A DNA stretch of 58,644 nt, counting the filler, from Sphacelaria rigidula (lineage: Eukaryota): the NCBI GenBank assembly GCA_964200075.2. It is 7 parts of 7 records of this genome, joined end to end, with 100 filler letters (N's around TTAATTAATTAA, not from the genome) between each part and the next. Parts side by side here need not be neighbours in the genome. Positions count along the whole stretch, not along the records: positions 25,178 to 33,469 come from CAXNAA020011627.1; 6 more parts are not named here. One strand, given 5' to 3'. The notes under the pieces are model-generated. The model worked only from the letters and a program-made list of their open reading frames with translations. It searched no databases and had not been told where the DNA came from. Positions 13,757-58,644 of this stretch are shown here, in pieces. Numbering within the stretch: position 1 is the first letter of the stretch; each line of letters opens with the position of its first letter. A program made the translations under genes and the position numbers.

Positions 13757-16700
13757 AGCTTGCGCGAAACGGATCTTCCTTATTACTTACAATCGTAACT
13801 AATCCACATACAGAGTTGGGTGTCCAAGTATTACTGGACGAGTGCTGAATACGTCCACGAGATCCGGAGGTGTTCGCGGGAGGGGGCAAGCAAAGGCTGC
13901 GAAGACCCAGAAGAATACGCTGTGCCACGAAGGGCAGGCGTCAGATTATTTTCTTGATCTACAAACGCAGTCCACATCGCGTCTACAGAGGCGTATGGCA
14001 TCTATTTGTGCGCCAAGGCATCCGGAACCAATGATGGCATCAGCGTAGGGGACTGCTGAGCGATGCTATTCCGTACACATGTCTGACAAATTGCATCACT
14101 AGGCCCGTTTTGCCTGCCATTACCCGATCGGAGTTCTCGAAACCTTCCTCTGATTACCTGCGCGAGTTCAAGCTTTTTGCCACTGGTACTGTCATATCGT
14201 CGACGCCACATTGTCAAGAGGAACGTCGGAATACTTCTCTAGTACCCCATTTGCGGTGCCTTTGGAAAGAGGCAGGTCAGTACAATGATACAGTGTGTTC
14301 ACTTACACACTATATTCACGCAGTAGGTTCTCGTATATGTTGAACCAAAAAGACAAGCTCGTTCTCAGTTTTATTAGCTTTGACGATCTTCGCTTCTAGC
14401 TTCCACCCGGGATCACCAAAAGCAACGTAGCAATTGACGCCGATGGTCTGAGCAGAGAGTGAGGATGTGTGCGAGACACTCAACCCAAGCCAAACCTCTC
14501 CCTACAATAGCAGGCGTCACCAGCTTCCGGGAGCTGGGGATCGTAAATCAAATCTGCATGCTAACCTTTCCCGGGACTGTAGGAGATTCTGTTCATCTAT
14601 TCTCGAGCAGAAATATCCAAGACCAGCATAATTCTCGTGATGTACGAGTCTAAAAGGGAGACGCTGCAAACGCATCTTCACTTCATGACAGGGGTGTACT
14701 CATGATCATACATTCCGTAGTCACAAGATCATTGGCCTCGGGGAGACGGGTCGGGAGGGGGGGGGGGGGGTCAAGTATGACGAAGAGAAAAAAAACCTCT
14801 TGATCCTCTCGTTGCCCATATCTTCCGGACCGACCGCGTGTACGGGCGATTTTCGCTGTGGCATAAATAGGCCTAGAACAAATATTTTGCGTAACGAGCG
14901 CCAACAGCCAAGAACTGGAGATCTCCTCACAGTGCACCTCTTACATGTACGCACTTGCGTAGACTTGAGTGGCGAGTGTCCTCTGAACAGTATATCTGCG
15001 TTCACTCGTCCTACAGTGCGCGCTAGGAACAGTTGTAGCCCATGTGTACGGCAAGATCTCATACGACGGGGCGGCAATTATATCAGACCTCCCGTGACGC
15101 CCTTGTTGTCCGTGAAGCCCACCTCCCCGTCGACAACAAGCGTTGTGGAGTCCTCCAACGAGATCGCACCTGCGGGTAAAAAAAGTGGTATCCGGAAGAT
15201 TTTTCACCAACCGTTGTAGATTAGATACTGCAAGTATCCACTTGTCCACCACCCACAGCACATTACAGGTATGGTACAACTTCATGATGGTAATGAGGCA
15301 GCCGATGGTAGAAATACTTCAACATTCCCCTAATCGTACTTTGCGATCCTTTTAGTGCTCGGAAGAGTCGAACCTGGCTGACCGTTGGGGAGGGGAGACG
15401 CCGTCGAAGCTGGGTGGCCAACTGGTGCGATGGCCATCTATGGCTATTGAGGAGGGGAGGTGCAAGGCTCATACTGTCTGCATTGCTGTGCTTTATGACA
15501 CGGATGCCTGAGGATGCCTAACTGTACCGTATCCCCCAGCTTCTTTCTAGCTGGCGTGTGCTGTATATGCACCAAGTGATAGATTATATAGCTGCGTTTT
15601 CACGGTTAGGCGAAGCGGCGATGGGGTGGAGGTCTCGTCATGAGTCCTTCACATGTTGGTTGTTGACTGTGCCTCACGGCAATAATAATTCACCGTGCTC
15701 ACAGAGCCGGACTATTCCAAGCGAGTGACATCAGCCGCGTGCACACGAATCAGGTCTCTATGGGTACTCATGGTGAATCCCGTGGTCTTTCCTACAACTA
15801 AGGTCGTATGCAGCAGCACCTCGGGCGGGGGAGGGGGAAAGGCAGTGAACGTAGTTGGAGACTGCAGCCAAGAGGTCCTTTAGAATCAGAACACACGGGC
15901 AATTGTACTGCTGTCCTATGCGTACAGCATACCGGTACAGGACCAGGTCAAGTCTAATCGAGACGGAAAATCCGTCTGCACAAAACCATTTTTTCAACAG
16001 ATTTTCGCCCACAGCGACCAGTTGTGGGTCCTGTCGGAAACGCTGTTTTGTCCAAATCTACGCCAGATTTGAAGACGCTTCGAAGCTGCGGCAGTTCTCG
16101 CAGTGTCCCGACCTGTGTGAGCAGCACATGGCCGGAGCGATAGGCACTGTGGCCACAGACACGGTCCTTGCCGTTTTGTGTCCCATACATGCCACACTCT
16201 AAACGTGAAATCGGAAAAAGAAGATACCAGTTGGTGGTGATTCCCGATGACATGGCTATATATTATAGCAGCTAACGACTAAACTCGAACGGGATTTTTG
16301 GTTTTGACAATGTGAAGACGAGAAAAACACGACTGTACTGTATATTGTAGAAGGCCATGATTACTGAAGGCTTGTTCTGCCCCAATGAGACGCGGCTCAA
16401 GCACGTGGTGTTGCGTGTCGACTGGGTGCTGCTGCTCAGGCTATGAGAAATCCGTATTCGGCTTGCAAACAACTGCGGGAACTCTGTGTTTCGCGCCCAT
16501 GAATGACACTTTGATCATGCCCAGACGCCGCCTGGGCTGTTAGAAATCCATATTTGTTTGGAAACTGTGAAAAACCCGTGTGGACCCAGGAACAACTGCA
16601 ACGAATCCACATTTTCCCGCAAAATCGAGGTAGGGTGGTGGGGGGAGAGGAGTTATGGCTTTGGGGAGGGAGGCTATCTGCCCCCNNNNNNNNNNNNNNN

Positions 16701-24251: not shown

Positions 24252-25231
24252 GTGAGAGGGCAGTAAATTGTCTGAAGTTTTGAAGAAAAAAAATGAGCGC
24301 GGAAAGGGCGGGACCGGGCAAGAAAAATAGTATTGTGGGTGTTCGTGTGAGGTGGGTTCGTCCCAGTTCGCCTCCGAATTATTCATGGCTATCACATTTC
24401 GTAAATAACGCTAACCCTAACCCCATCCCAAGGTATACCGAGAAGCCTCGGGCAAAAGGATTCAAAGGATGCCCTAGACAGTGTGCGTTGACGACCCTCA
24501 ATGCGGTGCCCGCGGCGCCAATTTCGACAAAAACGCGTTCCGCACACGCTGGGAGCACTAGGAACTGTCAACCCCACTGAAGATCCGAATCGTGGTGTTC
24601 ACACTCAAATCAAGCAGTAGCATCCGCGATTAACCTGGAGGTGAACTGGGAGAAATTCCGTTGTTTTTTTCTTGTAATCGTGCGGTAGAGGCCGCGTAAT
24701 TGCCATGGTAAGGGCTGATTTCTGAAAATGTGTCATCTGCCAAAATCAAGTTATTTTTGGTAACATTGTTGCATATTCGTGTTGCGCGTCTATAATAGGC
24801 GAGCCTCCTTCTGTCTGCAAGCACAGAAAACACACCGCTCGTTACCTGTAGACGCACGCGTGACGCTTCTTACTCACCCCGACCCCTCCCCTTACGCTCG
24901 CGGACCACAGGTGAGAGTTGACGTCCAGTGACGTTCCCGTGTGTGCCGAAAAAGTATGAGAGGGTACGCCTTGAAGAACGATCCTCTTCACCCCCCCCCC
25001 CCCCCCCCACCGCGCCGGCAAGGGCGTCTGGTGCCCCCCGGGGGTGGGCTAGGTGGGTCGTCCCGGTCGGTGTCCGCNNNNNNNNNNNNNNNNNNNNNNN
25101 NNNNNNNNNNNNNNNNNNNNNTTAATTAATTAANNNNNNNNNNNNNNNNNNNNNNNNNNNNNNNNNNNNNNNNNNNNGCCTCATATTGGCGACATTAGCT
25201 AGAACGAACCCAAGCGTGGGAATTCCCAGCT

Positions 25232-25335: not shown

Positions 25336-26815
25336 GTTGAAATCTACCACGAAGATACATTATCGAGACGTTAACTTTAAGTGCAGATGCCGCTGTCGCA
25401 CTTGTTTTTGTTCGAGATTGGCGAACGAACGTTGTTGCGATATATATGCCGGACATATGAAATGTCCATACCGGCACGGAGTGCAACCGACCAGGGGAAA
25501 AGGAAGTTCCATCGGAAGAGGGACAGTTGTCGACCGGAACGCACGGCAATGGTAATTAGCGGCGAATTAGGTGCACATCGAAAGCGCCATCAGTGTACTC
25601 TACCTGAGCAGGCGGATGCGATGGTCACAAAAACTGTGTTATCTTACGAAGAGCCGGCAATCCAGACTAAAGGAACAATTCTTGCCATCGACACATGATA
25701 TTCCATCGTCGTTTTTCGATGGCTTGTCCCGAGTCATTGTTTCCACTTTTTGCATTCTTCTATTTCCGATCGACATTTATTTGGTATGTAACCGATTGTT
25801 CTTCCGGAAATATTCGTGTTGTAAACCGCTGAACAAAATAGTGGACTTCGTTCCGTGCCTGGAAACGGTCAATCACATGCAGAACAGTCGGGAACGTTGC
25901 GGAAGACTTGAAAGAGGTGCGGAACAGGTCCGGCTCCTCAAACCAAGTCTGGTCGAGCAGAAAAAACGAATGCCAGCCGCCGAACTCCTCATTACCTGTA
26001 AATCGGAGATCGGTGACCCTGCAGTCGGAACAGTGGAGAGCCCAGCTTTCCCCACAAATCCCACGCGAGTACCTGAAATTTCACGAAAGATCCTGGTTAG
26101 TGTGCGTCACCGAAGCTAATCCAGACAGACCATAACAAGAAAGACATCGACCAAAACAAATGGGAAGAAAATAAAAGTAGGTCCGACAATACTCGTCATA
26201 GGTGCGCTGGAGCGGTATACGTATATTTGATGACGAATAAGGCACTCTCTACAACCTGACGATGGACACTGAGTGGATATCTTTCAAGATCCGTTTTTTT
26301 TGTGCACCCTTAGTCGAGTGAATTGTGGTACTCGTTCGCCGCCAGCGATAGCACGTCGAGTCCAGAAGTACTGACTACGAAGCGATCGCTACTATGCCCT
26401 GTACTGCCAGTAGCTGGAAACACGGTGGCACTGCTCGACGTGTCGATGTTTCGCTGCTGGTACTCTTGAGAGCGAATCACACCACGAGATTAACTTCCGT
26501 GGACACTTTCGGTTCTTCTTCCCTCCCTCACATTCATCTCAAACGCCTTAACGCCTTTGTTGCATGTCATAATTATTGTGATAGCGTAATCCTACGACGG
26601 GGGGGTAGGGCCTCATATGCCGCCTGCCTTCGGTATTTAATTATACAAAACTCAGAGGGTAATAGGCGTGTTCAGACGACCTAACACACTCCCGGTGCGC
26701 TTTTAGTTAGGTGAGCACGGTGTCAAGTAATATGAATGAACGTGTCTTAGTAGTAACATGGGGCGTTCGAACGACGATCTGAAGTGAAATTTTGTGGAGG
26801 AAATGGCCCATAATA

Positions 26816-26915
26816 CCCCCCCCCCTCTATGTGTACGCCCCCCCCCCCTCTATGTGGTCAATGGTCAAACGACTAAGGCAAGCAACAAATGAGTACGCCC
26901 CCCCCCCCTCTATGT
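26816..26915 (+). mobile_element. two ultra-truncated non-LTR retrotransposon (family A) 3' ends in a triplicated poly(C) target site
   Basis: [C10TCTATGT] GTACG [C11TCTATGT] GGTCAATGGTCAAACGACTAAGGCAAGCAACAAATGAGTACG [C11TCTATGT]. The 42-mer matches the 3' terminus of the LINE fragment at 33651-34105. Confidence 0.8.
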
Positions 26916-27285
26916 CGTAGGATGGCTCCATAGCGGTTGTGTTCTTTTATTCGGGCCAGAGGAGCAATCAGCCAGGGTCACAGACAAGAGAGGGATCAAG
27001 TAGCACCCCTTCCGAGAGACGATCGTCGGGTCGACGATATGTAAGCCGTGGGGAATGACGGAGTTTCTACTAGACTCTAAACCTCCATCGCATGTTTCTG
27101 TGCCGCGTTCTCGGCAATTCCTCCTTGCAACTGGGCAACACGACACAGCACCCTTAGCGATGGCCTACGTGAGCCAGCGGGGCCTTGGCTATTTGCGAAG
27201 CACGTTAGCTGAATGGTCTATTGAGAGAACAACTCGAAACATCGACTCTATTGGACTTCATTTGTTCTCACTTCACCCTCCATAC

Positions 27286-30200
27286 CCGCTCCCAGCAGCA
27301 GGTTGTCCCCCGGGTCGAAAGCCAAGGATCGAATAGCCGCTCGATTGCCGTGCTTAGACTGCTCGTGGACGGAGCAGGGGGGGGAGGGGGGGGGCTAGGG
27401 GTTTCCATAAGACATGGACAATCCATTGATATATTTGTTGCACTGTGCCACATTAACGCATCTCCTGCGAACCCACCCGCGGTCATAAGATGTCCGAAAA
27501 CAATCAAAATGGGGGATTCGCGTGTAATCAAGCATAGCCATCGCTGTGACTACAAACACGAGCGGTAACATCCAACAACACGCACGGCGATACCGATTCT
27601 GACAAAACGTGAGGGGGGGGGAGTACAAACGAAGAGAACCAAGTGTAAGGTAGGACGGGAGAGTCTAGTTGCAGGGGGACTGCAACGACACTCCGAACAT
27701 CATGTCTACAAAGCGCACATTTTGAGAGGGCAAAGGTACCCTATCATGTCCATTAGTGAGCGGTCCAATTGCATTCACATGCCTCAGACGTCGGACCACA
27801 CCATTACACCAAAATCCACAACGGCTAGGACAAACGAGCGCTAAGGAAAGTTGCGTGATAGAGTCACTGCATTATACCAGGGCGCCTCACATATACGAGA
27901 CTGCACCAGTCTTTCGCATTAGCGTAGAACATTCGTGGTCCTGTAAAAAGGTAGAGGCTTCGCCTGCCCATTACAGGATGACACACGCCCCTTCAAAGGG
28001 ATTACCTACTGTGCAGACAAGGGTTACACGGAGGCCTCACTTGTACATACGAGCCCTTTTCGATATCCCACACGTACACGGCTCGATCGAGCCCACAGCT
28101 GATGAGACGCTGCCCGCACTCTGCCTCTGAGCCACTCACAGCCAACAAATCCTGTCAGTATGCGCACACGTGAGGACGGAGGTCGAGGGTGTTGAGGACG
28201 TCACCAGAGCAAACAAGCTATATCCCCCGAACAAAAATGAAGGTGAAGGGGAATTATCACATTGCGAGGACGACGGTTTGTTTTCAAGGCCATTCGTTGA
28301 TGCCGCGTGGAAACTCAAGGATGAAGGAGGGTACTTGATGGATTGCTCACATATTCAGTACTACTACTGTGTACATCCTGTAGACCATTTCAGAGCCTGC
28401 ACGTACGTTGGTTAGCCAACATTAGCACAGCCCTTGCGGCGTTCCAAGTGCTCGGTATCAGCACCTTCGCGGCGTGCGTCTTTAGTTTGCGTCTGAAAAC
28501 ATATAACGGAGTACGTCAGCGTATACCTGAACAATGTCGCTGTGGCGCTTCAGCGCGCCAACCTGCGTGACTGTGACCCGCACGCCCGGTTGCGTATCGT
28601 TGGCCACAGCTTCATAGTCCGTATCAATTGAAAAGGGTAAAATTGCGCCGTCACAGCCCGACGTGAAAGCCAGGCCCGTCACTGGACAGTACTCCAGCAC
28701 GTACTAATCACGATAGGGCGAGGTTTGCGGGGAGGACGGTAGCGGCGTGTAACGTCGAACAAAACGATAGACGTTCGGGCCGGTGGGGTATCAATTGTGC
28801 AGGCACTCCGTAGTTGATATGTCCTGGCGCGACAAAAGTGTACCGCTGAAATATTTAGGCTTCATCCGTGTGCACATCGTGGGTGTTTTACGTCCTATCC
28901 CATCCGAAGTATGTTTTCCGGTTCGCGCCACACAGGGTAACTCATTAAAATGGAGAGCAATCAATAAAATGCGGAGCAATTCTCCTTCACACCCACGATT
29001 GATGTGATATTTCGATAGCTCCTATGCCGAATCCATTGCATTGTGTGTGTGTGTGTAGTATGTCATGAGTATGGCATACTGAAGTGGCGCCAGCACATCT
29101 AGGTCGTTCCGGACCGTGCACCTGCTGCGACGAGGTCTTCACCAGCGCCACCCGAACGTAGGTGTCGCCTGCGAAGAACGCTAGACTCAAGTCGCTCCTC
29201 AGCACCATCAGCAAATTCTTCGCCTGGGTATATAAAAGAAGATGTAAGAACGAATTTGTCGGTTCAGTCTCGACAGACTGTTTGGAATTGCCGGTTAAAA
29301 CAGCGAGCCCTGTCTAGCCAGCGTACGGCATTGCCCGTACTATTCCCTTTGGCAAAGTATGCATGCTTGTCGATGATACTGACTTAAGTGCCGCGTAAGC
29401 ATTTCGAGACACGGTAGAGTAGGATCGATTTTTTCTGCAATTCTCAATTTTTGTATGTAAACTGGAGACACCTAGTGTGCACTTCAGCTCGAACATTGAC
29501 CAATGGGCGACGGTGCGATCACTTGTTGAACGCTAGCGACCACAGGCATTGCTCCCAGAATCACAGGTCCCGTCATTGTACCTCAAGCTACGCTAGTTCC
29601 ATGGTGAAACCTACGGCGTCGTCGAGAATCACCAAGCAGTATGGTGTTTGTTCACACCGATACTCGGTGAGTCCTACGTAATTTCCAAAACCGAAATTTG
29701 GCATCCTAGTTGCAGTGCCTCATCGCGTCTTGCAGTGTTCAGAATACAAAGCGCGAAGGCCTGGCGAAAGAACTACAGCACAGTTTCACGCGGAGTCAGG
29801 AATAGGTGCAAGACTTGACGCTTTCGCTTTGACCGCAGCAATGCCAGTGAGTTGGTGTCTCATGTGTCCATGGCAAAAAGCCTTCATCGTTACAAAGCTC
29901 TAGAGTTTTCTTCACCCAAAAACCATCTTCTGCTCCCTTCGATATATATATATATTTTGCGTGAGCGAGTCTTTTCGTTTTGCTTACCTGGCCTATCCCC
30001 ATTTGGTGACCACGGCTGGGTCATGACTACCTCAGAAATAAGTCAATGTGCGACAATCAATCACATCGATGCTCGAAACAACTTTTTCAAGGCATTCATT
30101 GTACTCTACGAGCACAAGACTCTCAAAAAAGAACATTCGAACCTCGGGGTTTTCGTTGTCGTAAAAATTGCGGAGCATCACCCCACATGAGTTCCACGAC

Positions 30201-31971: not shown

Positions 31972-32180
31972 TTGGTGTCCCATATATCCATGGCAAAAAC
32001 CCTTCGTGGCGGAGAGTTCTGGTGTATCACGCAAAAACCACCTCCTGCTCCCTTTGATTTCTCACGTTTTTTTTATCTTCAGCAAGCGCTTCCGTTCTGT
32101 TTACCTCGGGTACCACCATCTTGCGGATAATGACTAAATCACGACTGGGTCCCTCGGGGATCAGTTCATGTGCGAGAATT
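31972..32180 (+). mobile_element. family C SINE/LINE 3' end, second copy
   Basis: TTGGTGTC.CAT.T.TCCATGGCAAAAA.CCTTC...AAAAACCA.CT.CTGCTCCCTT.GAT shared with 29852-30063. Confidence 0.55.
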
Positions 32181-33650
32181 GATGAAAATAATTCTCGAAA
32201 CACCTATTTTCGATTGTGCGTGCGAGTTCTATCATCGGCTGATTCTCGGACCAATCGTTCCACAAGAGTCACTTCCCTCGCCTGCCCTTTGTCTATCTTG
32301 CATATCTTCCTCTTCTCGAACCATTGTTTACTTCTTCCCTTTTCCTTCTTCTCCCTGTGTCGAGTTCCCTGGAGCGAATGCTTTCGTTTCTTTACCTTGG
32401 ATACTTCCGTCCTGTGACAACGGCGGATCACCTTGTGTGCGACCATCTACAAATCAATTGACGAGTCATTCAATCAATCAAGGACGCCCAACAGTTGTCC
32501 TCCTTCAGCTAACGGCGCCTCAGGGTTGTGTTTTCGTGGCCATCTATCCCAACCTTCCAAATCATACTGACGTAGATGATTCTGCTTGACAGCGGTGTGA
32601 GGAGACCGCACGCACGTAAGCATATTCAGCCGTTCGCGTACTACTGCAGCACCTCCCTTGATTGATGCGAATCTTTTCATAGAGCGAAGCTTCCCCACTT
32701 ACGACATAAGGCGTGCGTCAAAGTATTCGGTTTGTCGAGATATTCCCTTCTATAGAAATATTTGTTCTTCGAGAGACCAAGGCGGAATATTTCAAAAGCC
32801 GCAACGATCCTTGGCCTTGTGGCCGCCAGAGGTTCTCCGGAGACCGAAGCGGAACGCGTGTCACCGAGAGCGCTGATACACCCCCTACTGCGACCTCATT
32901 CTGCGAGGACACTGACAATGCCCGCAAGCGGCGTGGGTGACGAAGATGTCGGACAACATCCGCGGTGGTATCATACGCCACCTGCGCCGCCGTGCGGTGA
33001 GAATTCCTTTGGAATCGCGAGAGACACAAGGACTCAAAAAGTGCGATGTTTGGTGCCACAACAAACTGTGGGTGTGGGCAAAATATGGACAACCACAACA
33101 GATATACAGCTTCCTAGTTTTTCATCGTCTGACTGAAGGGGCGCAGGGTGAATTGGGTTGCCGTCCGGAATCGAAGAGTTTGAGTATCGAAAGATCAACG
33201 TTTTGGTTCAAGCGAGCTCGCTTCTGGAATTTTCTTTCGATGTTATCGCGTTAACGCACGCGTGCCTGTGCCAAGGTGCAGCTGCACGTGGTTGCCATTG
33301 GATTTGAATTAAAATCATGGGGGAAATGCACCCCTTTGTTGTGAGATGTACATCAGCTCTCGGAGTCATGCTACGAGGGGGGGGGGGGGGGGGGGGGGTG
33401 TCTGTTGTTGTTTCGCCTTGGGGTTTTGTCCTTTAGCCCGACGCCCCTGTCAGGCGGAGCGGCGGTTTCNNNNNNNNNNNNNNNNNNNNNNNNNNNNNNN
33501 NNNNNNNNNNNNNTTAATTAATTAANNNNNNNNNNNNNNNNNNNNNNNNNNNNNNNNNNNNNNNNNNNNTGAGTTGCTTTATTCTGTGGTACCGCCACTT
33601 CCAGAGACAGCCACAGCTTTTACACTGCTTCATGGGGGGGGGGGAGGGGA

Positions 33651-34105: not shown

Positions 34106-34164
34106 CAGATCCAGCTCAAAGACAAAAAAAAACTAGAGAGAGACATGGCCCAATCATCAGAACA

Positions 34165-34690: not shown

Positions 34691-34751
34691 CGTGCTCATG
34701 TGTTGCTTGCCTTAGCCATTTGACCATTGACCACGCATCCATTTCGAGACG
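34691..34751 (-). mobile_element. family A 3'-end fragment
   Basis: Minus strand reads CGTCTCGAAATGGATGCGTGGTCAATGGTCAAATGGCTAAGGCAAGCAACACATGAGCACG, then C-rich sequence. Confidence 0.7.
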
Positions 34752-34780
34752 AAGAATATACAGAGGGGGTGAGCGGGGGG

Positions 34781-35245
34781 TGTACTCATGATCTTGCACG
34801 TCGTAGTCGTGTGACTGTTGACCTCGCACCCCTACAAAGCTGGGACGGAGAACTCCGAGTTTTTGCCGGACCAGGCTCCCAATCACCACAAGGGGTGAGC
34901 TGCATCATGCTAAAATTGGTCGGCCCGAATCGTTCAAGCGATCGTGCATATGGAAGACAGCCTCGAAGGAGTTGCTTCATTTTCTGGTATTTCAACTTCC
35001 AGAGACAGCCACGGGTTACACACTGCCTCATCGATGTCTCGCTATTCAAACGCTACGTAGTACGATCATGCCCTTTGCGCGGAGTTGAGGTTCTCCACCT
35101 TGAACAACGTGCAATCCAACATGACCACCATCAAGGTTACCGCAAAACCTCCCCGCAAACGACAAAAAAGAGCGGTGACCTGGTTGTTTAGCTTAGAAAG
35201 TGAGTGGCGTGTTTTACAGCATCGTTACCAACCGACGTCAAACCT
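34781..35245 (-). mobile_element. family B non-coding retroposon-like repeat
   Basis: Core GG.TTG.CGTCGGTTGG.AACGATGCTGTAAAACACGCCACTCACT..TAAGCTA..CAACCAGGT through CCTGGTCCGGC.AAAA to the 3' end GATCATGAGTACA + C-run. Confidence 0.75.
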
Positions 35246-36382
35246 TGAATACAGGGGAGACGGGGATGGGTACGCGGTAGGTGCAGCTGTGTGCGAGAGA
35301 TGTCGGTAGATTCTTTGCTTGAGTGCAACCTGTTTATATGAAAAACTTGGGGTGTGTCATATGCGTGTCGCGAATACTGAAGGTCTCAGCCACACCGTTG
35401 GGGCATGCACTCGAGAAATACGTCCGTACCTCCTCCGTTCCATTAGTCTGTGTGGTTATCTTTGCACGGACCCTCAACCGTGTCCGACTTCATCATTGGT
35501 TTTCTTGTTGCATTCGTTGGCATTTTATTTGTCAGAACGACTGTTTGATTTTTACCGTTGGGGCTTGACCCATGCGGCCGAGCGGTCCGACACTCGTCCC
35601 TTCTCCGGAGGCACCCCCCCCCCCCCCCCCCCCCCCCCCCCCGCCCCCACCGAACACGCAAAAAAAACAAACACACACCCCCACCAAGACCCAGCACANN
35701 NNNNNNNNGGGGCCCGCGCCTCGCCCCTCCCCGGGAGGGCCCCCCCCCCCCCCCCCGCCCCCCTGGAAAAAATGGCAAAGCAAGTAAAAAACGCTTGCTC
35801 CTCGCACAAAGGTCAGTTTTGCCTCGTCCTGAACCACGTTTGTCGCGTCGTCACCTCTGTCCAGCTCGTCAATCGCGAAACTCGGTCGAATCAGGCTAAA
35901 ACCGTATTCAAAGCGGTCAAAATTGGGTTACTCGGGTCCAAACTTGTGTCTACAAATTATTTCATTTCTTACTTTTCCTTGTTCTAAAATATGAATATCT
36001 CTATATTTTCATTTCTTCGCCGATACTAACAACAGCATCGAAGCAGCCTCTGTTCGAGAGGTGCGATGTGCACCCCATACCCACCCAGACCATGGAATAG
36101 AGGAAGTGTAGGGTAAGCACAGTGACACCTCGACAACGAAAATGTGCGTCCTCGCAGACTAAACAAAAAACTTTGATCTCGGCGCACGTCATGACTGTGA
36201 TAACACACCACAGTTTCAAGGATCATAGCACTGCTCTCCGAAGAAACAGCAATCCCACGTTTCAGCGAACGAGGGTCTGATGGAATCTGAAGCGGAGTCT
36301 ACATGCATTCGCAATGTCGAACCGGATGTTCTTCAAGTGTGCGTGGTCCATGGTCTCCTTTTCATGTCTCGACTGTCATCAG

Positions 36383-41259: not shown

Positions 41260-41522
41260 GTGAGCACGACCTGAATTAAACTTGCTCTGCTTGATATTCA
41301 GCGGTGTTCTACGATACTCTCTGTAGGAGTTTGCTTGGGCCTGACCCCGGGAGCATCAACATTGACTAATCGATTGATCGTGCCGCATTAGGTGGTCCGC
41401 TATAGACCGAGCCGCGATCACAAAATAGATGGACGTATCCAAGGTAACTATATGATGAATCTTACTGAAAACTTCTTAATAGGAGGGGAAAATTGGTATA
41501 GGTCCTGTAACCCCCCCGCCGA

Positions 41523-41861
41523 CAGTCTCCGGTCCGGCGAGAACCCGGTGTGCTCTTTCCCGGCTTTGTAGGGCCGGACCCCGATGAGGTTGGTGTCGGT
41601 TGGCGATGACGCTGTCAAACACGCCACTCACTGCGTAAGCTAGGCAATCAGGTTACCGATTTTTTTGCGCACTTGCGTTTTTTTGCGGTAATCATGATAG
41701 TGGTCGAGCTAGATCATTTTGTGCGGCGTGGAAGAACCTCAACTCCGCACAATGGGGATGGTCGTACTACGTAGTGTGTACATGGTGAGACACCTATGAG
41801 GCAGTGTATAAGCCATGGCTGTCTCTGGAAGTGGCGATACCAGACAACAAAGCAACTCATT
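41523..41861 (+). mobile_element. family B repeat (truncated by contig end)
   Basis: C-run, then the module CCGGTCCGGCGAGAACCCGGTGTGCTCTTTCCCGGCTTTGTAGGG, then the core GGTTGGTGTCGGTTGG...CACTCACTGCGTAAGCTAGGCAA. Confidence 0.75.
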
Positions 41862-44040: not shown

Positions 44041-44084
44041 TATACCTGCGGCCCAGATGAAAATGCAACTGACCAAACCACAAT

Positions 44085-44319: not shown

Positions 44320-47300
44320 CGCACAACCCCAGGCGCCGGAACACTCAGCAGCCCCACGAACGCGTCGAGGACCCCGGCCGTGTTCACCGCCTCCACCAGG
44401 CGTGTTCCGCCTCTGGATACCAGATTCCACATCGCAAACGCCGCCTCGCGCTGCATGTCGAGCTGCCCCGACACCAGCAGAGCCGTCAGCGCGGCCGCCG
44501 ATCCTTGAGCAACGAGAGCTTCGCAATGTTCCGGTCGGCCGGCGGCGACGTTGGAAGCTACCCAGGCCGCTTCCTTCACGAGCGCTCGTTGGCCGGGTGC
44601 CTGGCGTATTGCGCGTATTGGTTCGGTTGTGTTGTACCAAATCAATTCGGAGAGCAAGCACATTGCTTTTCTCGGGCTCTGCCACATCAAAACTCATAGA
44701 CAGTGTTCATGAGAGGTCATTTCTCCACGATCGACAGGTTGCTAACTGCCTGCCCCTCTGTCTCTGTCTGTCTCTGTCTCCCTGTCTCTCTGTCTGACGG
44801 TACTGTCCTCAGGAACGTGTTCGGTCATGTTGAGAGGATTTTTTTTCTTTTTCATATTTTTCGACTCCACATTTGTTTGCTTTTTCTTCTATCGTCATTT
44901 TGTTCCAATTCCTTCCCCTGTCCCCCCATTCCTCCCTCGAGGGTTGGCGTCGGTTGGCAACGATGCTTCAAAGCACGCCACTTCCTGCGTAAGCTAGGCA
45001 ACCAGGTTACCGTTTCTATCCTCGCTTGCGTTCTTTGCGGTAACCGTGATGGTGGTCGAGCTATGTCATGTTGTGCGGGGTGGGCGAACCTCGATTCCAT
45101 GCAAAGGGAATGATCGTACCACGCCGTGTCTAAATGGTGAGACACCCATGAGGCAGTGTAACCCGTGGCTGCCTCTGGAAGTGGCGATACCACCAAATGA
45201 AGCAACTCATTGTTGGCTGTCATCCAAATGCAAGATAACCAGTACACCTCGGGCCGAACAATATTAGCACAATGCGGTTCACCCCTCATACGATTCGCCG
45301 AACATATCACAGCACTTCGCGCTTAGTGATTGATTGCGAGCCTGGTCCGGCGAAAACCCGGCGTTTTTAGAAAAGAGGCAGTAGTGCGGGTAAAAATCCA
45401 GCCCCGAGTTTCAATAGTGGAGGGTGAAGCCTCTCGCTGTTGGTCAGGTGACGCATAACCCCCTCCCTCCCTCGAGATGAGCCCGCAGGCCCGAGAGATG
45501 CATTAAGCCATCATTTCTCCCACGGTACCTATCCACCTGCCTTGCATTTTGTTCAAATTTACCAGTTTATGAGCGGCTCGCTAGATGCCTACGCGCGCGC
45601 GCGCGCGAAAACCGCGACAGGCACACCCGAGTATTTCGTCTTCCTTCCGAAAACCGACCACCTGGTTCCCGAAAACTAGCTGAATCTGGCGGAAATAGTT
45701 CGTTCGTATGGTGGATTGCCAAGAAGCCGAATGCCATCGTCCAGCTCTTCCATAACAGCGGCAAAGCAACGATGATCGTACACTTTCGAGGTTTTCCCAC
45801 AGGGCACATCCCCGTCGGAAAGTACACCACTACAGGTGTTCCAAACCCTGACCGAAGCCTGACGCTTCTTGAGTGCGGAGGTTCGGCAACTACTGTACCC
45901 CCGAGTTTTCCTTTCCCTTGACAGATAACCGGTGCAAGGGCAGAACGGGGCTCACCGAGGGCTAACAAGGAAGAGCCATGCACGCCAAACACCGTAAGAG
46001 AGTCATACCCCGAACCGGAGTATACATCAACATGTTATTATCCAGACCCCCGAAAATATGCCGTTTTCGACATAAAATATCGACACATGGGGAAAACTTA
46101 CCCCCCCGTCTACGCAGGTCAAACGACTAAGGCAAGCAATGAATGAGTACCCCCCCCCCCCCCCAGGGTGAGTGAAGCGAGTAAACAAGTAAACAAGTAA
46201 ACAAGTAAACAAGTAAACAAGCAGTATCTAGAATTCTTGATGTGGCGCGGGGGGGTGGGGGGGGGGGCTGTTGTACGAGGAGCAGCAAAGTGTTTGAGAA
46301 GAGTAGTTTTTTTGGCCGCTGGCCCTTTCGCCTACCTGGCTCTTTAGGATGGAATCTAAAACCGGTAAGAACGCCGCTTGCTGCAAAACCGCATCCCCCC
46401 ACTCCTGCGGCCCGGCCATCATATTGCCCAGCGAACGGAGGACCGGGGTGCACAGCGGGTCCTGAAGAGTGGGTGGGGGAAAATGTGGCAACGTACATGC
46501 ATGCATGCAGGCAGGCAGGCATGCACGGGGCGGTCAAACGCGGGGGTAAAACACTGCAGACGCTGACACTAAGTTTAACCCTTCGATGAATAATCAAACT
46601 GCGAAGCAAGCCTCTGGAATCCTTTGTATATCGCAGGTCACGAACGCGCTCATATTGGCTTACGCACAGACAGATATATACAGACAACCAGGCAGTCAGA
46701 TAGTCAGACAGACACATACATACATAAATACAGACACACACAGAGACACACACATTGGAACATGACACACACACGGGACTCGAAACGGTCAAGGCTTGAT
46801 CAATCGAGAGATTCTGATTTGATCGATTGTCGCACATCAACTGATCCACCGTGAAGAAGTCAGCCGTGATGAACATGCACCCGTACCCGTACACTAGTAG
46901 CCAACGTAAGTAATTAATGAAAACATGCCTCTCTCGAGTGCTACGATGAGGGGATAATTAAAAAATGGCCTCGATAAGAAGGGAAAATGAAGATGAAATG
47001 AAAAAGAAAAACAATATATTTGATCACCAAAGAACCTAAAGGAAAGAAAGAATGAAGCCTAGTTAAGTCAACTCGAAAACGAGAGAGAGAGAAAAAAAAA
47101 GTGGAAGACAGAGAGAAACGAAATAAAGCAAAGTGAGGCAAAGCAAAACGAAGAGCAGCAAGGCAAAGCAGAGCCAAGCGAAGCGAAGCAACGGAAGAGG
47201 AAACAGCGGACGAGAAAACAACTGTTTCACAGCAACCCGACGGGTTTACACATTCAAAATAGACCCGCCGAAACTACGTGACAAAGAAAAAGACGTCTGC

Positions 47301-49214
47301 TCTATCGGGGTTAACGAAAAATACACAGTAATCGGTACGATGATACACACGTGAGAGCAAAGTATGAGCGACACTTGGCAGCGAAATAAGGGGGTGGCCT
47401 GGGACGAGGAAAGAGTAGCTTTTGGGGTACTTTGGTGTAACCACCCACCCTCCGCGAACCAGCTCAATGATGTTGCGAGATCCTCCCACCCTCGTAATAC
47501 ATTGCTTCCCACCACATCCCCAAGGCAGTGCATACAACTTTAGTATCATCCGCGTTCTACTGAAAATGTGTCATGGGTTCATTTTAGCCTCGCGGGGAGC
47601 GAGGTCTGTCGCTCTCTCGGAACAATATCGCCCGCTGACCTTAACCCCTTCACTGCCAGGGTGCATCAGCTGTTGAATCGGCATCATGTTCACTCGCAAT
47701 ATCGTTTTCTCTGGTAGTCGGAGGGTTACTCTTAGACATTCCTCACGTTAGAATAGCTGAGCAGCAATCATCTCTTTTCCAGCAACCCCCCCTCCCTCCC
47801 CTCCCCTCCCCCGCCCGATCTACTCCTGAGGGTTGGCGTCGGTTGGTAACGACGGTGTTAAACACACCACTCACTGGGGAAGCTAGGCAACCAGGTTACC
47901 GTGTTTTCTTTGCTTGCGTTTTTTTGTGCGGTAACCATGATGGTGGCCGAGCTAGATCATACTGTGCGGCATGGAGTACCCGAATTTCGCGCAAAGGGGA
48001 TAATCATACTGAGTAGTGTTTATGTGGTTAGACACCCAGGAAGTGTTGAACGCGAGGCTGTCTCTGGACGTGGCGATACCAGCAAAGGAAGCAACTCATT
48101 GTTGCCTGTCACCCAAATGCAAGATAATCAGTTCGTCTCGTGCCGAAAAATATAAGCAGGATGCAGTTCACCCCTCATGCGACTCGCCGAACACATCACG
48201 GCGCTTCGCGCTTGGCGATTGATTGCGAGCCTGGTCCGGCGAAAAGTCGGTGTGCTCCGTCCCGGCTTATGACGACGGCATGCAAGATCATGAGTACACC
48301 TCCCCCGCCAAGGTCGGGTAGGGTAGTGGAGAAAGTATACAGGAGGATACTAAGAACATATACTGTCCATAGGTAAGGTTTGGGGACTCAAGAAAAAGGT
48401 TAAAAAAGGGATGGAAATAAGGGAAAAGCTAGCGCGAAGACAGAAAGTCGACGAGGAAGAACACTTGGAGACGTACGGGGGACTGAGAGAAGAGATAGGG
48501 GATGAAAACATATTGGAACGGCCAAATGGACTACGCGAAAACGCTGCAACTGCGATTTCGGGTGCGGCACCTGGACCTGCCAGAAGGACGAAAAAGGTGA
48601 ACTCGTAGTCGGGTGGAGGAATTCCCACAGTCGGTCATACTCGCTTTGTGCTGTGGTTTGCCCAGACAACATTTACGGTCACGTGAGCACTGTACATACA
48701 GCCCAAGAATTCGCGACATTCGTTTTCATCGATCATCTGCTAACGCACGGAGGCGTATAGTAGAAACTGGTAAAGACATACGAAATAAATGGCCAGCGGG
48801 ACACCGCACACTGGAGTACAATATACACATTGGAGTATGACGCACACGCGCATACACATGCACACGCGCGCGCGCGCACATACACACACGCACGCAAGCA
48901 CGCACGCACGCACATGTACACGCACACACACACACACACACCTCCCCTTTGCTGTCCACCAGCGCCTCCACCAGCGCCGGCACCATGCCCAACTGCACCA
49001 GAGCGGAACCGGACTCGTCATCTTTGGCTGTAACAAAAGCCAATATCCAGGCGGCCTCCACGCGAAGGGGCTCGTCTCTCGGCGCACCCGCCGCCGTTCC
49101 CTGCAACGCCGCGATCACTTCGCACCCAACTTGCAAAAAGGGTTTCGCCGGTGTTTTGTCGCCGCGAGCCAGGTTCGAGATTGCCCACGCCGCTGTGCGG
49201 GCGATTTCGACGGA
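44320..49214 (-). CDS. ARM-repeat protein, importin-alpha-9/TMCO6-like, internal exons
   Basis: Minus-strand exons 49214-48942, 46461-46336 and 44600-44320 splice in frame. ARM helix-3 motifs: [56 protein letters not shown]. Confidence 0.88.
44939..45363 (+). mobile_element. family B repeat
   Basis: C-rich flank, then the core from GAGGGTTGGCGTCGGTTGG to the module CCTGGTCCGGCGAAAACCCGGCG. Confidence 0.75.
46117..46150 (+). mobile_element. family A 3'-end fragment between C-runs
   Basis: GGTCAAACGACTAAGGCAAGCAATGAATGAGTAC followed by a C-run of ~14, with a C7 run just upstream. Confidence 0.7.
47828..48298 (+). mobile_element. family B repeat, core to 3' end
   Basis: Core + module + GGCATGCAAGATCATGAGTACA, with C-rich sequence on both flanks. 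Confidence 0.75.
48312..48620 (+). mobile_element. family A LINE internal ORF fragment (degenerate)
   Basis: [48 protein letters not shown] (frameshifted); its 3' part overlaps the 5' end of the 33651-34105 copy. Confidence 0.7.
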
Positions 49215-49374
49215 CTGGATTGCGTTCAAGGTAGATTAATACATATACACATATATATATATGAAGAAAAAGAAAATAATACGTATATATCGATTAGTAA
49301 TATATATTAACATACAGATTTTGGTCATTTCTTTCTGTGCTTTGCTCGTGTTGACTTCTTTTTTTCACGTCTTA

Positions 49375-50353: not shown

Positions 50354-50615
50354 GTCGCATGAAGGGTGAGCTGCATCCTGCTAAGATTGTTCGGTCCGAA
50401 GCGTACGGATATATCTTGCATTTGGATGGCAGCCTCCGATGAGTTGCTTTATTGTCTGGTATCGCCATTTCCAGAGACAGTCACGGCTTTTACACTGCTG
50501 CCTCGGGCGGGGGGGGGAAGGTGTACTCATGACATTGCATGCCGCAGTCTCATGACCCTTGACCTCGCATTCCTACAAAGCCGGGACGGAGCACGCCGGG
50601 TTTTCGCCGGACCAG
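50354..50615 (-). mobile_element. two stacked family B fragments separated by a G-run
   Basis: On the minus strand: module + 3' end ATGAGTACA (50615-50522), a C-run, then a 5'-truncated core (~50505-50354). Confidence 0.7.
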
Positions 50616-50894
50616 GGGCGGGAGGGGATAGGGTATATTGTTTGGCCGGTGCTCTTTGTATCGCCAACTTTTTGTCTACTGAGTGCATGGACAGGAAAAA
50701 CGAACACTAGTCGTCCATTTTTTTCATTTCTGCTGCTGTTGTCGCTGCTGCTGTTGTCGCTGCTGCTGCTGTCGTTGCTGCTACTGCTGCTGCCCCCATC
50801 GCCCTCCTGGATGCGCTTCTCTTTGTTTTTGTTCCATTTTTTTTCGTGTGTGTGTGTGTGTGTGTGTGTGTGCATGGTTTCTGGATTTTGACAG

Positions 50895-51509
50895 ATTCAA
50901 TTTCCCGATCGAGTGGTGGTTCAAGCAACGTTTGGGTGTAAAGAAGGCGTCAAGGATGTCATTCATCTCGTGAAGGACTGTCTGGGAGAGGAATACCAAG
51001 GACGACAGGCGGGTGCTCTCCCCCCCCCCCAAACGCCCCCATCTTACCCCTGTTGCGCCCCTTGATAGGTTTTAATCCTTGTGTATTTGTCAGTTGACCA
51101 CAATCCAAGACTTTGATGATCTCTCAGCACATCATAACACACTTTGTACGTGAAGAAGCTTGTTCAATTTTTTACATGTCCCCGCCCGTTCATGCCCTCC
51201 CCTTGTGAGGGATGCGAGGACAATTGTCTCATGACTACGACATCCAATATCATGAGTATCCCCATTTCCCTCGTCGATCCATCTCTACCCATATCCTCAA
51301 TAGTCCTTCCCCACTAGATAATACTGCAGTGGTGAAAATCCCCAATATTCACGTCTACCGACTGTAGTGGCGTTTCTAATCACTCAATGCTAGCGTGCGT
51401 TGTGTATGTGCCATGTTCCACTTCCGCGTCTCACCACTATGTTATCCTGCATCCCACCCACCCAGTAGGATGGACGAACGGAATTGTGGAAGAAGTCTCA
51501 GGCCCGGAT

Positions 51510-53910: not shown

Positions 53911-54937
53911 TTACTATCAAAGATGTTATGCATTGAATAGAGAAAATAGAGTATACTACATGATTTTGGGAACAAGAACGGGTAGCTCACTTTTGGGCTC
54001 GGGGTGCAGCGCTGCACGGGGGTTGAGCACCTCGAAAACATGTTCCAGCGCCTCAGCCCCACGCGCAACGTGCCTGGGCAGCATCCCCGACATTTTTTTT
54101 TATACACGCATCCTCTCCCCATACCCCCCGTCATTCACCGAGCGTTTCAGCGCTTGCACACGACACACCCGCTTCCCACCCCTTGTTACCCCTTGTTTTG
54201 CCCACCGTTTCGACGTGCGTGGGCTTGAATTGCGTCCTACACGCCATACACCTTATACTGAAGCACCACTGATTCATGCATCCCTCGATCTATCTTCTAT
54301 CTCTTTTCCGTCTTTCTCATCATTCGCATATATCCACAGCTCCCTGGAAGTGTTGCGACCTTCGACAACGGGGGCCGAACGCCGCACTACTTTATTCGAC
54401 GAATATACAAAATCATGCAGCATGCGTGAAATTTGTATTAGCTTGTGAACTATTATAATCCCCCCCCCCCCCCCTCGCCGCCACCGAAAAGGCATTCAAA
54501 AAGTTCATATGTACTGTATGGTAAAAACATTATGAACGCCCGAATGCTGCAGGTGTCTTCGGTAGGAGTAGAAACGGCGCTCCGTCTCGAAAGTGATGTG
54601 TGGTGAACGGTCGAATGACTAAGGCACGCAACAAATGAGCCCCCCCCCCACCTCCCCACCCCCCGCCACCCCCCGCCACCGCTCTTGCATGTGTTGTTGA
54701 TACGCAGGAGAGGCAGAAGGCGCGTATTTGAAGACGGAGCTATCAGGCAACCCTGGAGGGAGCGGCGCCGCGCTCTCGAGGCCAGTCGGCGTTGCCCTCG
54801 TGCCTGGACAGCCAGACGCTCAAGAGGGAGCCCGCGGGAGGGGCGGCGGCAGGCTTGGTGGGGGAGCAGGAGTTTCAGGATCGATGGGATCGGGAAACAA
54901 GCGAAAGGGGAAGCCGAGTTGGCTGAAGATCAACTAG
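50895..54937 (+). CDS. ASPSCR1: TUG/ASPSCR1 (PUX1/Ubx4)-like UBX-domain p97/Cdc48 cofactor, 3' part
   Basis: Exons 50895-51008 (IQFPDRVVVQATFG...DCLGEEYQGRQ, donor CAG|GCGGGT), 53612-53729 (FQLYVSPPRTLLKEASSLSDAGLVPAALVYVSW) and 54708-54937 (...KRKGKPSWLKIN*). FPDR..Q..F, F.LY..PP, GLVPAA and a terminal KP.WLK are typical of the family. Confidence 0.85.
51512..51563. repeat. (TG)n microsatellite
   Basis: About 26 TG units. Similar tracts at 48922-48941, 50846-50872 and 57355-57407. Confidence 0.95.
52171..52306. mobile_element. 136-bp Mutator-like MITE with perfect 10-bp TSD
   Basis: TIR ACACCCTGGACAA / TTGTCCAGGGTGT; GGTATTTTGC on both flanks (52161-52170, 52307-52316); inner inverted repeat TGTACTGCGTACAGTAT / ATACTGTATGCAGTACA. 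Confidence 0.85.
53799..53910. repeat. compound (GTT)n-(AGT)n microsatellite
   Basis: Seen directly. Other simple repeats: (CAA)n 30595-30620, (AACC)n ~38656-38695, (CAG/CAA)n 44085-44142, (GTAAACAA)5 46181-46220, (AGACAGGCCCTA)3 ~17528-17562. Confidence 0.95.
54487..54639 (+). mobile_element. family A 3' fragment flanked by C-rich direct repeats
   Basis: Matches the last ~150 nt of 33651-34105 (GAACGCCC.AATG.TG.AGGTGTCT...AGGAGTAG.AACG..GCTCC.TCTCG...GACTAAGGCA.GCAACAAATGAG). Both flanks are C-runs ending in GCCACCG. Confidence 0.75.
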
Positions 54938-57615: not shown

Positions 57616-58077
57616 CATTTCATCAAGTTCCGCCGACTCCACCACAGTAGAAAACGGGTGGATTCGAGGTTTTAACCACCCACAAAGGGCACCCACGAAA
57701 GGTACCGCTAATTGCGCCATGTTTTCGTCATTTTTTTTTGCCATACGTGTGAATATAGAAAGTAATCGTGTGAGAAACTGACCACGTTGAGAGCAAACAC
57801 ACATACTTTCTGAAACACCTGACGGAACGGACACCCGATACACACAGGGAGGACGAAATCCCCTCCCCCCTCCCCTCCCCCCTACCCCCTCCCCGAGGGT
57901 TCTCCAAAACACTTTCGATAGGAAGTAACACTGGCCCGTTAATCCCGCGACTGCTTCACCAGCCACTGCAACACTTGATCGATGTTGATCACCTGACACG
58001 AAACAATAATAAATTCAGGCAGCAGAGGGATAAAACGTATGCCAGACAACGGCAAGAGAGGGGGGGGGGGGGAGGGG

Positions 58078-58125
58078 TGTACTCATTATCATGCATGCCA
58101 TAGTCATCAGACCATTGACCTCGCA
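58078..58125 (-). mobile_element. family B 3'-end fragment inside a G-run
   Basis: Minus strand: C-run+TCT, GCGAGGTCAATGGTCTGATGACTATGGCATGCATGATAATGAGTACA, C-run+TCT. Similar fragments at 14695-14740 (-) and ~51211-51260 (+). Confidence 0.75.
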
Positions 58126-58440
58126 GAGGGGCGGGGGGGGGGGCGGTGGGGGGTTAGAGCACGCACGCACACAGAGAGAGACAGAGAGACAGAGACAGAG
58201 AGACAGACACGGAGACACACAGAGACAGACACGTGTATCAACTTTTTTTTTCCTCGAAGGAAGGAGGAAACTCTCCCAACAGTTACCCCGCAAGCGGGTT
58301 CGTGTGCCGATTACCCCGATGCTCGGCTAGATCGCCTCACGGCAGTCATGTGGGGTAGGCGCCTCGAGCGTTCGAAGGCTTTGCTTGGGGCAAGTGCGAG
58401 AGTAAAACCCGCGAACTTCCCCCCCCCCCTCCCCCCCGTC

Positions 58441-58644
58441 AGCCTGGTCCGACGAGAACCGGGCGCGCTCCGTCTCGGCTTTGTAGGGGCGGACCCCCCA
58501 TGGGGTTGGCGTCGGTTGGCGATGACGCAATAAAACACGTCTCTCACTGCGTAAGCTAGGCAACCAGGTTACCGATTTTTTTTGCGGTAACCATGATGGT
58601 AGTCGAGCTAGATCATGTTGTGCGACGTGGGAGGAGCTCAAGTC
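58441..58644 (+). mobile_element. family B repeat (truncated by window end)
   Basis: C-run, module, then core, in the same arrangement as 41523-41861. Confidence 0.75.

What the first reader, a model, noticed from the sequence alone, without database searches (positions are those of the whole stretch)
26816..26915. Non-LTR retrotransposon that appears to target poly(C)/poly(G) homopolymers and has no poly(A) tail
Seen: the site C10-11TCTATGT occurs three times in tandem, separated by GTACG and by a 42-nt sequence ending ATGAGTACG. The same terminus ends the protein-coding LINE remnant at 33651-34105 and the fragments at 34691-34751, 46117-46150 and 54487-54639. All are variably 5'-truncated, share the 3' end and run straight into C-rich sequence; where the flank is clear it is duplicated upstream. 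Established: a fixed 3' end, 5' truncation and a TSD are the signature of target-primed reverse transcription, and microsatellite-specific LINEs exist (Waldo/Mino for AC, Kibi for TC, Koshi for TTC). Inference: this lineage targets C/G homopolymers, a specificity I do not recall being described, and each TSD creates a new target.
Basis: partly seen in the sequence, partly recalled or inferred. Interest (0 to 1): 0.8.

Follow-up and report, generated by a model that had tools for sequence, protein, structure and literature searches.

The report
C-run-seeking LINE retrotransposon of brown alga
The triple repeat is the scar of a very abundant jumping gene (a LINE retrotransposon) that ends in a run of C's instead of A's and inserts into runs of C's; this is real and unusual, but the same behaviour is already listed for related elements of the brown alga Ectocarpus.

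Summary
Observation confirmed. The 42-nt piece is the 3' tip of a high-copy LINE with one ORF (APE endonuclease + reverse transcriptase) whose stop codon lies 5 nt from the end. Of 1,652 exact termini in the genome, 1,152 run into CCCCC and 0 into AAAAA. In 69 usable copies a C-run of 5 or more lies in the 5' flank in 48 (background 2.1%; G-runs 2 of 69); 26 have a clear duplication, median 15 nt. The flagged site is the C-run in one end of a ~330-bp MITE-like repeat whose paralogues are empty and still carry the run. So the preference is real, but loose, and the element also adds C's. It is catalogued: the Ectocarpus TE library lists RTEX-1/-2_Ec32 with '(C)n 3'' and C-rich TSDs and a ~600-bp non-autonomous partner; closest named homologues are from Ectocarpus, and a like partner exists here. 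Not found in what I read: 33 of 69 copies stop at 62-70 nt, the edge of a 3' domain that distant relatives share while ending in (TAT)n instead of (C)n.

The parts
26816..26832 (+). Target copy 1: C10 + TCTATGT (target-site duplication)
26833..26837 (+). GTACG: last 5 nt of the LINE (its whole 3' UTR); preceded by ATGT where the element has ATGA, a 3-of-4 microhomology
26838..26855 (+). Target copy 2: C11 + TCTATGT; its last GT also matches the element (2-nt microhomology)
26856..26897 (+). 42-nt 5'-truncated LINE tip (family A): last codons, TGA stop, GTACG
26898..26915 (+). Target copy 3: C11 + TCTATGT
26590..26922 (.). Host repeat: MITE-like element with short inverted ends, G-run inside the left end and C-run inside the right end; the insertions sit in the right C-run
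   Evidence: body 69-73% identical to L139, L147, L156
33651..34105 (-). Older family A remnant, ~455 nt, coding C-terminus with stops and frameshifts; C-rich 3' flank, T-rich 5' flank
34691..34751 (-). Family A tip inserted just behind the C-rich tail of a family B copy
46117..46150 (+). Family A tip, C7 upstream and C15 downstream
54487..54639 (+). Family A fragment, C15 upstream, C-rich downstream
48342..48621 (+). Internal family A coding fragment starting ~40 nt behind a family B tail; its own 3' end is missing
47828..48298 (+). Family B non-autonomous copy (ends ATCATGAGTACAC + C-rich)
34780..35248 (-). Family B non-autonomous copy
44939..45364 (+). Family B copy lacking its 3' end
41511..41861 (+). 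Family B copy with its 5' head, cut by an assembly gap
58428..58644 (+). Family B 5' head behind a C-run, cut by the window end
50520..50626 (-). Family B 3' tip (~100 nt) with C-rich flanks
58076..58130 (-). Family B 3' tip between two C-runs
14693..14745 (-). Degenerate family B 3' tip behind a C-run
51203..51260 (+). Degenerate family B 3' tip

Best explanation
A brown-algal RTE-X-type LINE that works like human L1 with C in place of A. SHOWN: single APE+RT ORF ending 5 nt before the element end; fixed 3' end; 5' truncation; 8-24-nt duplications that begin with a C-run; pre-existing runs at empty paralogous sites; one orientation only (C-run on the element's sense strand); a non-coding partner family sharing the last ~50 nt. 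INFERRED: the endonuclease nicks the G-rich strand within or at the edge of the run; the freed 3'-OH ends in G's and pairs with C's that follow GTACG in the RNA (read-through into the donor copy's own C-run), priming reverse transcription; slippage of G on C sets a 3' run of about 3-17 C's whatever the target had; the second nick falls a few bases past the run, giving a duplication of run plus unique letters; the RT picks its RNA by the last ~50-67 nt (stringent type), which is why family B is carried along. Each insertion leaves two C-runs, so copies pile up. The flagged triple is most simply two such events (or one event with a re-priming jump) in the C-run of a MITE end.
For: Domains: Pfam RVT_1 and Exo_endo_phos in genomic copies and in the intact relative P0008, which matches L033/L134 along its whole length. 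3' flank: 1,152 of 1,652 termini followed by CCCCC, 0 by AAAAA within 3 nt. 5' flank: C-run of 5+ in 48 of 69, 8+ in 30 of 69; background 2.1% and 0.4% of 4,392 windows; G-run of 5+ in 2 of 69. Duplication of 8+ nt with 3+ non-C matches in 26 of 69; mismatched-pair control mean 5.7%, max 10.6%. Run lengths on the two sides uncorrelated (Spearman 0.06, n=26): upstream run of 5 or fewer gives a longer 3' run in 6 of 8 (2 equal); upstream run of 9 or more gives a shorter one in 7 of 7. Empty right ends with a C-run in L147 and L139; L156 has its own insertion there. Family B: 1,582 exact termini, last 51 nt ~77-85% like family A. Same terminus + C13 and + C10 in two unrelated public contigs, L168 and L169. 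RT tree joins the genomic copies with Ectocarpus proteins at 100/99. Ectocarpus RTEX families annotated with the same traits.
Against: 43 of 69 copies did not pass the duplication test and 21 of 69 lack a C-run of 5 upstream, so the preference is not absolute or many sites have decayed. The uncorrelated run lengths can also come from post-insertion slippage, homopolymer sequencing error and regression to the mean. No RNA 3' end was seen. Nick positions are inferred only. No named RTEX reference could be put in the tree; the paper's FASTA library could not be read.
Confidence: 0.8

Rival explanations
1. Pure target choice: the RNA ends at GTACG, the endonuclease recognises G-runs, and every downstream C comes from the duplicated target.
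For: At the flagged site the runs are 10, 11, 11; in 14 of 26 clear duplications the 3' run is no longer than the 5' run; empty paralogues carry the run.
Against: 12 of 26 have more C-rich letters downstream than upstream, by 4-17 in eight cases; C fraction is 0.87 in the first 8 nt downstream against 0.59 in the upstream peak zone; distant relatives with the same 3' signature carry a constant (TAT)n tail, so a tail is the norm of this lineage.
Confidence: 0.12
2. Tail only: the element carries a C tail and inserts at any nick; upstream C-runs reflect priming bias (only nicks beside G-runs can pair with the tail), with an endonuclease that has no sequence preference of its own.
For: A third of copies lack a long upstream run; no single base dominates before the upstream run (A 11, T 10, G 5 of 26). 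This differs from the best reading only in where the selectivity sits, and genomic data cannot separate the two.
Against: 33-fold excess of upstream C-runs and strict orientation still need a strong filter; APE endonucleases of other LINEs have intrinsic preferences (established knowledge, recalled).
Confidence: 0.3
3. For the triple itself: one insertion, then local duplication of the unit and a deletion between the ATG of the duplication end and the ATG near the element end, leaving GTACG; no second retrotransposition.
For: All three target copies are identical apart from one C; the ATGT/ATGA microhomology is where such a deletion would join.
Against: Needs two further steps with no other change; tandem stacks of tips with target copies between them are common in the genome (L056, L060, L095, L120; 'goes back' joints); the same microhomology is expected for a 9-nt cDNA joining the target end.
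Confidence: 0.25

Closest known systems
RTEX-1_Ec32 and RTEX-2_Ec32 (LINE/RTE-X) of Ectocarpus sp. 7 (PMC12477816; seen: passages, part 1 of section 5, supplement list, part 1 of 3 of supplement file 1)
   Same: Single EN-RT ORF; '(C)n 3'' and '(C)n termini/TSD'; TSD 'C-rich'; 5.5-5.9 kb; most abundant LINE group of the genome (16,418 copies); brown-algal host; nearest named protein homologues here are from Ectocarpus sp. CCAP 1310/34 (up to 69% over the RT region).
   Different: Another genome (244 Mb assembly); long copies here are old and broken (about 75-87% alike) while very short tips are abundant. The main-text passages I saw give no target statistics, no mechanism, no stub-length peak and no 3' structure. 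Sequence identity with the Ec32 consensus was not testable.
RTEX-N1_Ec32 / RTEX-N2_Ec32 (non-autonomous partners; same supplement)
   Same: Family B: non-coding, ~600 nt, shares ~50 nt of 3' end at ~80%, C-rich flanks, often tandem, no Rfam head; N1 is 604-607 bp with '60 bp 3' end 83%' and 'can be present in tandem'.
   Different: Family B repeats ~55 nt of its 5' head just before the shared tail; orthology to N1 untested.
RTEX of green algae (PMC3747384, passages and Table 3 seen)
   Same: 3' ends are simple repeats other than (A)n: (CA)n, (CAA)n, (CCAT)n, (ACAATG)n, (CTTGTAA)n; SINE/LINE pairs sharing a 3' stem-loop define the stringent type.
   Different: Here the repeat unit is a single C.
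Human L1 (best PDB sequence match, E 6.6e-21; mechanism recalled)
   Same: APE+RT, homopolymer tail that matches a homopolymer at the start of the TSD, TSD of about 15 nt, 5' truncation with microhomology (14 of 26).
   Different: C instead of A; no ORF1 seen; 5-nt 3' UTR; tail cannot come from poly(A) polymerase; RNA recognition appears stringent.
Waldo/Mino, Kibi, Koshi (recalled; no call)
   Same: APE LINEs found in simple repeats.
   Different: Recalled as R1- and Tx1-clade elements with near-strict targets; this family is neither strict nor shown to belong to those clades.

Membership tests
APE-type non-LTR retrotransposon | APE endonuclease N-terminal to an RT | tested here: met
APE-type non-LTR retrotransposon | Fixed 3' end, variable 5' truncation, variable-length TSD | tested here: met
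RTEX-1/-2_Ec32 lineage (RTE-X) | Single EN-RT ORF | tested here: met
   P0008 (1360 aa) aligns from residue 1 to 1360 with L033 in pieces; no intact copy seen in this genome
RTEX-1/-2_Ec32 lineage (RTE-X) | (C)n 3' end | tested here: met
RTEX-1/-2_Ec32 lineage (RTE-X) | C-rich TSD | tested here: met
RTEX-1/-2_Ec32 lineage (RTE-X) | Non-autonomous ~600-bp partner sharing ~60 bp of 3' end | tested here: met
   family B
RTEX-1/-2_Ec32 lineage (RTE-X) | Length 5.5-5.9 kb | tested here: inconclusive
   at least ~4.8 kb of shared sequence (L033 724-5827 less one insertion); 5' end not fixed
RTEX-1/-2_Ec32 lineage (RTE-X) | RT groups with Ectocarpus elements | tested here: met
   100/99 clade with P0001, P0013, P0014, P0021; these are from Ectocarpus sp. 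CCAP 1310/34 and carry no TE name
RTEX-1/-2_Ec32 lineage (RTE-X) | Direct match to the Ec32 consensus, or RT placement among Repbase RTEX references | not testable with these tools
   FASTA supplements unreadable; no named RTEX protein among hits
RTE clade proper (RTE-1/-2_Ec32) | (CAA)n 3' end and RTE-type RT | tested here: not met
   tail is (C)n; an RTE-looking copy of this genome (L136) is 27% identical and far off in the tree; its RTE label is my reading of motifs, recalled
L1 clade, relaxed type | poly(A) tail | tested here: not met
   0 of 1,652
Strictly microsatellite-specific LINEs (Waldo, Mino, Kibi, Koshi) | Nearly all copies inside the target repeat at a fixed register | tested here: not met
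   48 of 69 with C5+, 30 of 69 with C8+ upstream; criterion recalled
Known ribozyme or structured RNA family at the 3' end | Rfam match | tested here: not met
   no match on any family A or B copy at E up to 1

The most novel reading that the evidence does not exclude
The last ~67 nt of this lineage form an old RNA domain, overlapping the final codons, that the RT binds and that sets a preferred stub length; it has been kept from brown algae to a distant eukaryotic host while the tail behind it switched from (TAT)n to (C)n and the target switched with it. Tail and target would then be a swappable module, with an RNA that needs no poly(A) for priming and is supplied with C's by its own previous target; the 62-70-nt stubs may even be a self-standing mini-retroposon made from a protected or cleaved RNA fragment.
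Probability: 0.4. Interest if true: 0.58.

Novelty: new member of a known kind. Interest (0 to 1): 0.36.

Why it matters
A C-tailed, C-run-seeking LINE is a natural mirror of L1 and a clean test of whether tail-to-target pairing or endonuclease preference decides where LINEs land. It also explains why this genome is full of C/G runs: 193 of 554 C-runs of 6+ in the fetched loci follow a terminus-like motif (the loci were chosen for holding such termini, so this overstates the genome). Because the trait is already listed for Ectocarpus, the gain here is numbers, empty-site evidence and the (TAT)n-tailed sister group, not discovery of the specificity.

Tried and rejected
ORF running off the element end with no stop: my first reading used the wrong frame; intact relatives end ...TKASNK then TGA. 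Ribozyme or tRNA head: no Rfam match on these repeats; single-sequence folds of five window copies gave z from -0.99 to +0.52 (the sixth sequence was folded on the wrong strand and is ignored), so stability alone does not support a structure. Metagenome scan with a distant relative's C-terminus gave 1 locus, a chance bacterial hit. Viral scan: nothing. A 17-letter pattern in genome contigs was too loose and gave chance matches; not used. Expression: no RNA holder listed. Empty or one-step alleles of the flagged site: none among contigs of 4 runs, and no listed piece spans the site. Literature: six searches found no paper whose main text describes a poly(C)-tailed or poly(C)-targeting LINE; the record was found only in a supplement, and subscription papers, Repbase and Dfam were not searched. 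PMC6007223: one passage seen (RTE 3' repeats match TSD starts), no mention of RTEX. Earlier scan findings: none on this family. Host gene context: only one exon was scanned with success (dynein heavy chain).

Full report
1. Observation. The named copies elsewhere in the window share the 3' end. The last 28 nt occur 1,652 times exactly in the 244-Mb genome, the reversed control never. Contigs of run X5 reproduce both halves of the site without a differing letter (possibly the same source as the window).

2. What the element is. A search with the 33651-34105 remnant had 3,186 first-look candidates, of which 40 were scored. Walking upstream in long copies gave an APE endonuclease and an RT. All long copies seen are broken. 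An intact database relative, P0008 (1360 aa; Pfam Exo_endo_phos 170-392, RVT_1 740-989), aligns with L033 from residue 1 to 1360 and with the window remnants at 55-74%. The ORF ends ...TKASNK, then TGA, then only GTACG. A Cys/His motif near the C-terminus (CPCG...H...C) is visible (reading it as a zinc knuckle is recalled). Shared sequence spans at least ~4.8 kb. The nearest named homologues are Ectocarpus proteins, and an RT tree puts two genomic copies, P0008, P0009 and four Ectocarpus proteins in one clade (100/99; 35 rows, no named clade references). The host is therefore most likely a brown alga (inference); one exon in the window is a dynein heavy chain.

3. Flanks. Genome-wide, 1,152 of 1,652 termini are followed by CCCCC and none by AAAAA within 3 nt. 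For the 5' side I took the first 100 listed places: 30 came as loci, 58 of the other 70 were fetched (12 at contig ends were skipped), giving 88 distinct termini, of which 19 were dropped for short or N-containing flanks. The pattern holds no flank letters, but exact matching favours young copies. In the 69 left, the 25 nt before the 5' junction hold a C-run of 5+ in 48 and of 8+ in 30; background 2.1% and 0.4%; G-runs of 5+ in 2. The C fraction peaks (0.63-0.72) 9-14 nt before the junction, as expected for a duplication made of a run plus a few unique letters. A duplication of 8+ nt with 3+ non-C matches was found in 26 of 69, against 5.7% for mismatched pairs; median 15 nt, range 8-24. 43 did not pass this strict test; several of them have only C's to match.

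4. Target or tail. Both. In the 26, run lengths on the two sides are uncorrelated; 12 are longer downstream, 3 equal, 11 shorter. Short upstream runs (5 or fewer) gain downstream in 6 of 8; long ones (9 or more) lose in 7 of 7. This fits a nick inside the run plus a slipping C tail, though homopolymer error and regression to the mean act the same way.

5. Empty sites. The flagged site is the C-run inside the right end of a ~330-bp repeat with short inverted ends. Of three paralogues aligned, L147 and L139 have this end empty with the C-run in place; L156 has a 42-nt tip with its own duplication there. The repeat bodies are 69-73% alike while the two tips are 38 of 42 alike and the window's tip holds the common 28-mer unchanged, so the two insertions are probably independent (inference). 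All three paralogues carry a family B copy in the run of the left end, which in the window is empty; they were fetched because of that copy, so this shows the site can be used, not how often.

6. Partner family. Family B (1,582 exact termini) is non-coding, about 600 nt when full, 5'-truncated, C-flanked, and shares its last 51 nt with family A at 77-85%. A and B stack on each other's tails: 6 of 69 A copies have another terminus within 45 nt upstream, against 7 of 2,446 background windows.

7. Beyond this genome. Three contigs inside public MAG records encode close relatives; two end in the same terminus plus C13 and C10, the third is decayed with a short C-rich stretch. A sister group (RT 52-56% identical; 89/88 support only), found on eukaryote-like contigs inside MAG records (host unknown), keeps the same 3' signature but ends in (TAT)n: A+T 86% and C 9% in the 10 nt behind the end, n=12, against C 75% in family A, n=63. 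In a 5-bp hairpin of this signature the two inner pairs are T-A and C-G in families A and B (58 of 63; 15 of 15) and C-G and G-C in the sister group (9 and 10 of 12); L295 shows a third pairing by eye. These are two or three lineage-level changes, not many independent ones, the pattern used fixed three letters of the stem, and single-sequence folds are not unusually stable. No Rfam family matches.

8. Stub length. 33 of 69 copies are 62-70 nt long (mode 66), with 1 copy at 47-59 and 3 at 73-85. The peak coincides with a GTGCTC that starts at -67 and can pair with the terminal GAGTAC. Either the RT tends to let go at the edge of a bound domain, or a protected or cleaved ~66-nt RNA is itself a template; I favour the first (about 60:40) because the starts are spread over nine positions. 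Sampling toward young copies may sharpen the peak.

9. The triple. Three readings fit: two insertions with the same nicks; one event in which the cDNA jumped to the target end, re-primed on the RNA's C's and joined again through ATGT/ATGA; or duplication followed by deletion. Stacks of tips are common in the genome, which favours the first two. No intermediate allele was seen.

10. What is known. The supplement of the Ectocarpus TE paper (PMC12477816; file 1, part 1 of 3 read) lists RTEX-1_Ec32 'single EN-RT ORF; (C)n 3'', RTEX-2_Ec32 '(C)n termini/TSD', and RTEX-N1/-N2, all with TSD 'C-rich'; N1 is 604-607 bp with a 60-bp 3' end 83% like the LINEs and 'can be present in tandem'. The part of the main text I read (passages) mentions the shared 3' end but not the C trait. 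Green-algal RTEX end in other simple repeats (PMC3747384 Table 3). Every testable trait matches; a direct sequence match could not be run because the FASTA supplements are unreadable here. Six literature searches found no main-text account of the specificity; Repbase, Dfam and subscription journals were not searched.

11. Verdict. Real, well supported, and a new member of a catalogued but barely studied kind. Works like L1 with C for A (0.8). Member of the Ectocarpus C-tailed RTE-X lineage (about 0.85, by traits and homology, without the direct match). Interest 0.36; 0.58 if the conserved 3' domain with a swappable tail and target holds (0.4).

Noticed in passing
window 26590-26922; L139, L147, L156: MITE-like repeat with C/G runs just inside both inverted ends; these runs are used again and again by families A and B. 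The end motif behind a C-run appears 17 times in the fetched loci and window.
   Followed up: partly
window 41511-41570, 58428-58490 versus 48230-48270: Family B repeats ~55 nt of its 5' head just before the shared 3' tail; truncated copies often start at this second copy (~100 nt). The head has an 8-bp inverted pair; no Rfam match.
   Followed up: partly
P0008, P0009, P0014, P0033, P0050-P0058 and others: A C-terminal motif like GCVVNG is kept at the very end of the ORF in distant relatives (16 of 126 long proteins by a strict pattern); probably the RNA signal seen through the code.
   Followed up: partly
L292-L327, L168-L170, P0005: Eukaryotic LINE-rich contigs filed inside bacterial or archaeal MAG records; contamination of those records.
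   Followed up: no
window 49371-49859 and 20265-20538: Long imperfect palindromes (82% over 490 nt; 76% over 275 nt), probably MITEs; weak miRNA-family Rfam hits far below threshold.
   Followed up: no
window 42895-43305 / 43628-44055 and 5023-5203 / 5590-5770: Pairs of long inverted repeats (80% and 88%), likely ends of DNA transposons.
   Followed up: no
window 34161-34580 / 39948-40348; 29852-30087 / 31972-32209; 22415-22504 / 22571-22660: Further dispersed or local direct repeats of unknown family.
   Followed up: no
window 33470-33569: Assembly gap of N's containing the spacer TTAATTAATTAA (stops in all six frames): an assembly linker, not biology.
   Followed up: no
window 37507-37965 +; 23787-24266 -; 48726-49235 -: Short exons: dynein heavy chain (Pfam DHC_N2); a kinesin-like and an armadillo-like stretch by eye only (not tested).
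   Followed up: partly
L136 (reverse strand, first ~1.6 kb): A separate RTE-looking LINE fragment next to a family A copy, 27% identical in the RT.
   Followed up: partly
endonuclease domain, P0008 versus P0028: The loop before the SxxDY motif differs between C-tailed (QCIQKGE) and a sister-group protein (VRSSLNQ); in L1-type enzymes this loop shapes target choice (recalled). A lead for the in vitro test; the tail of P0028's element was not seen.
   Followed up: no
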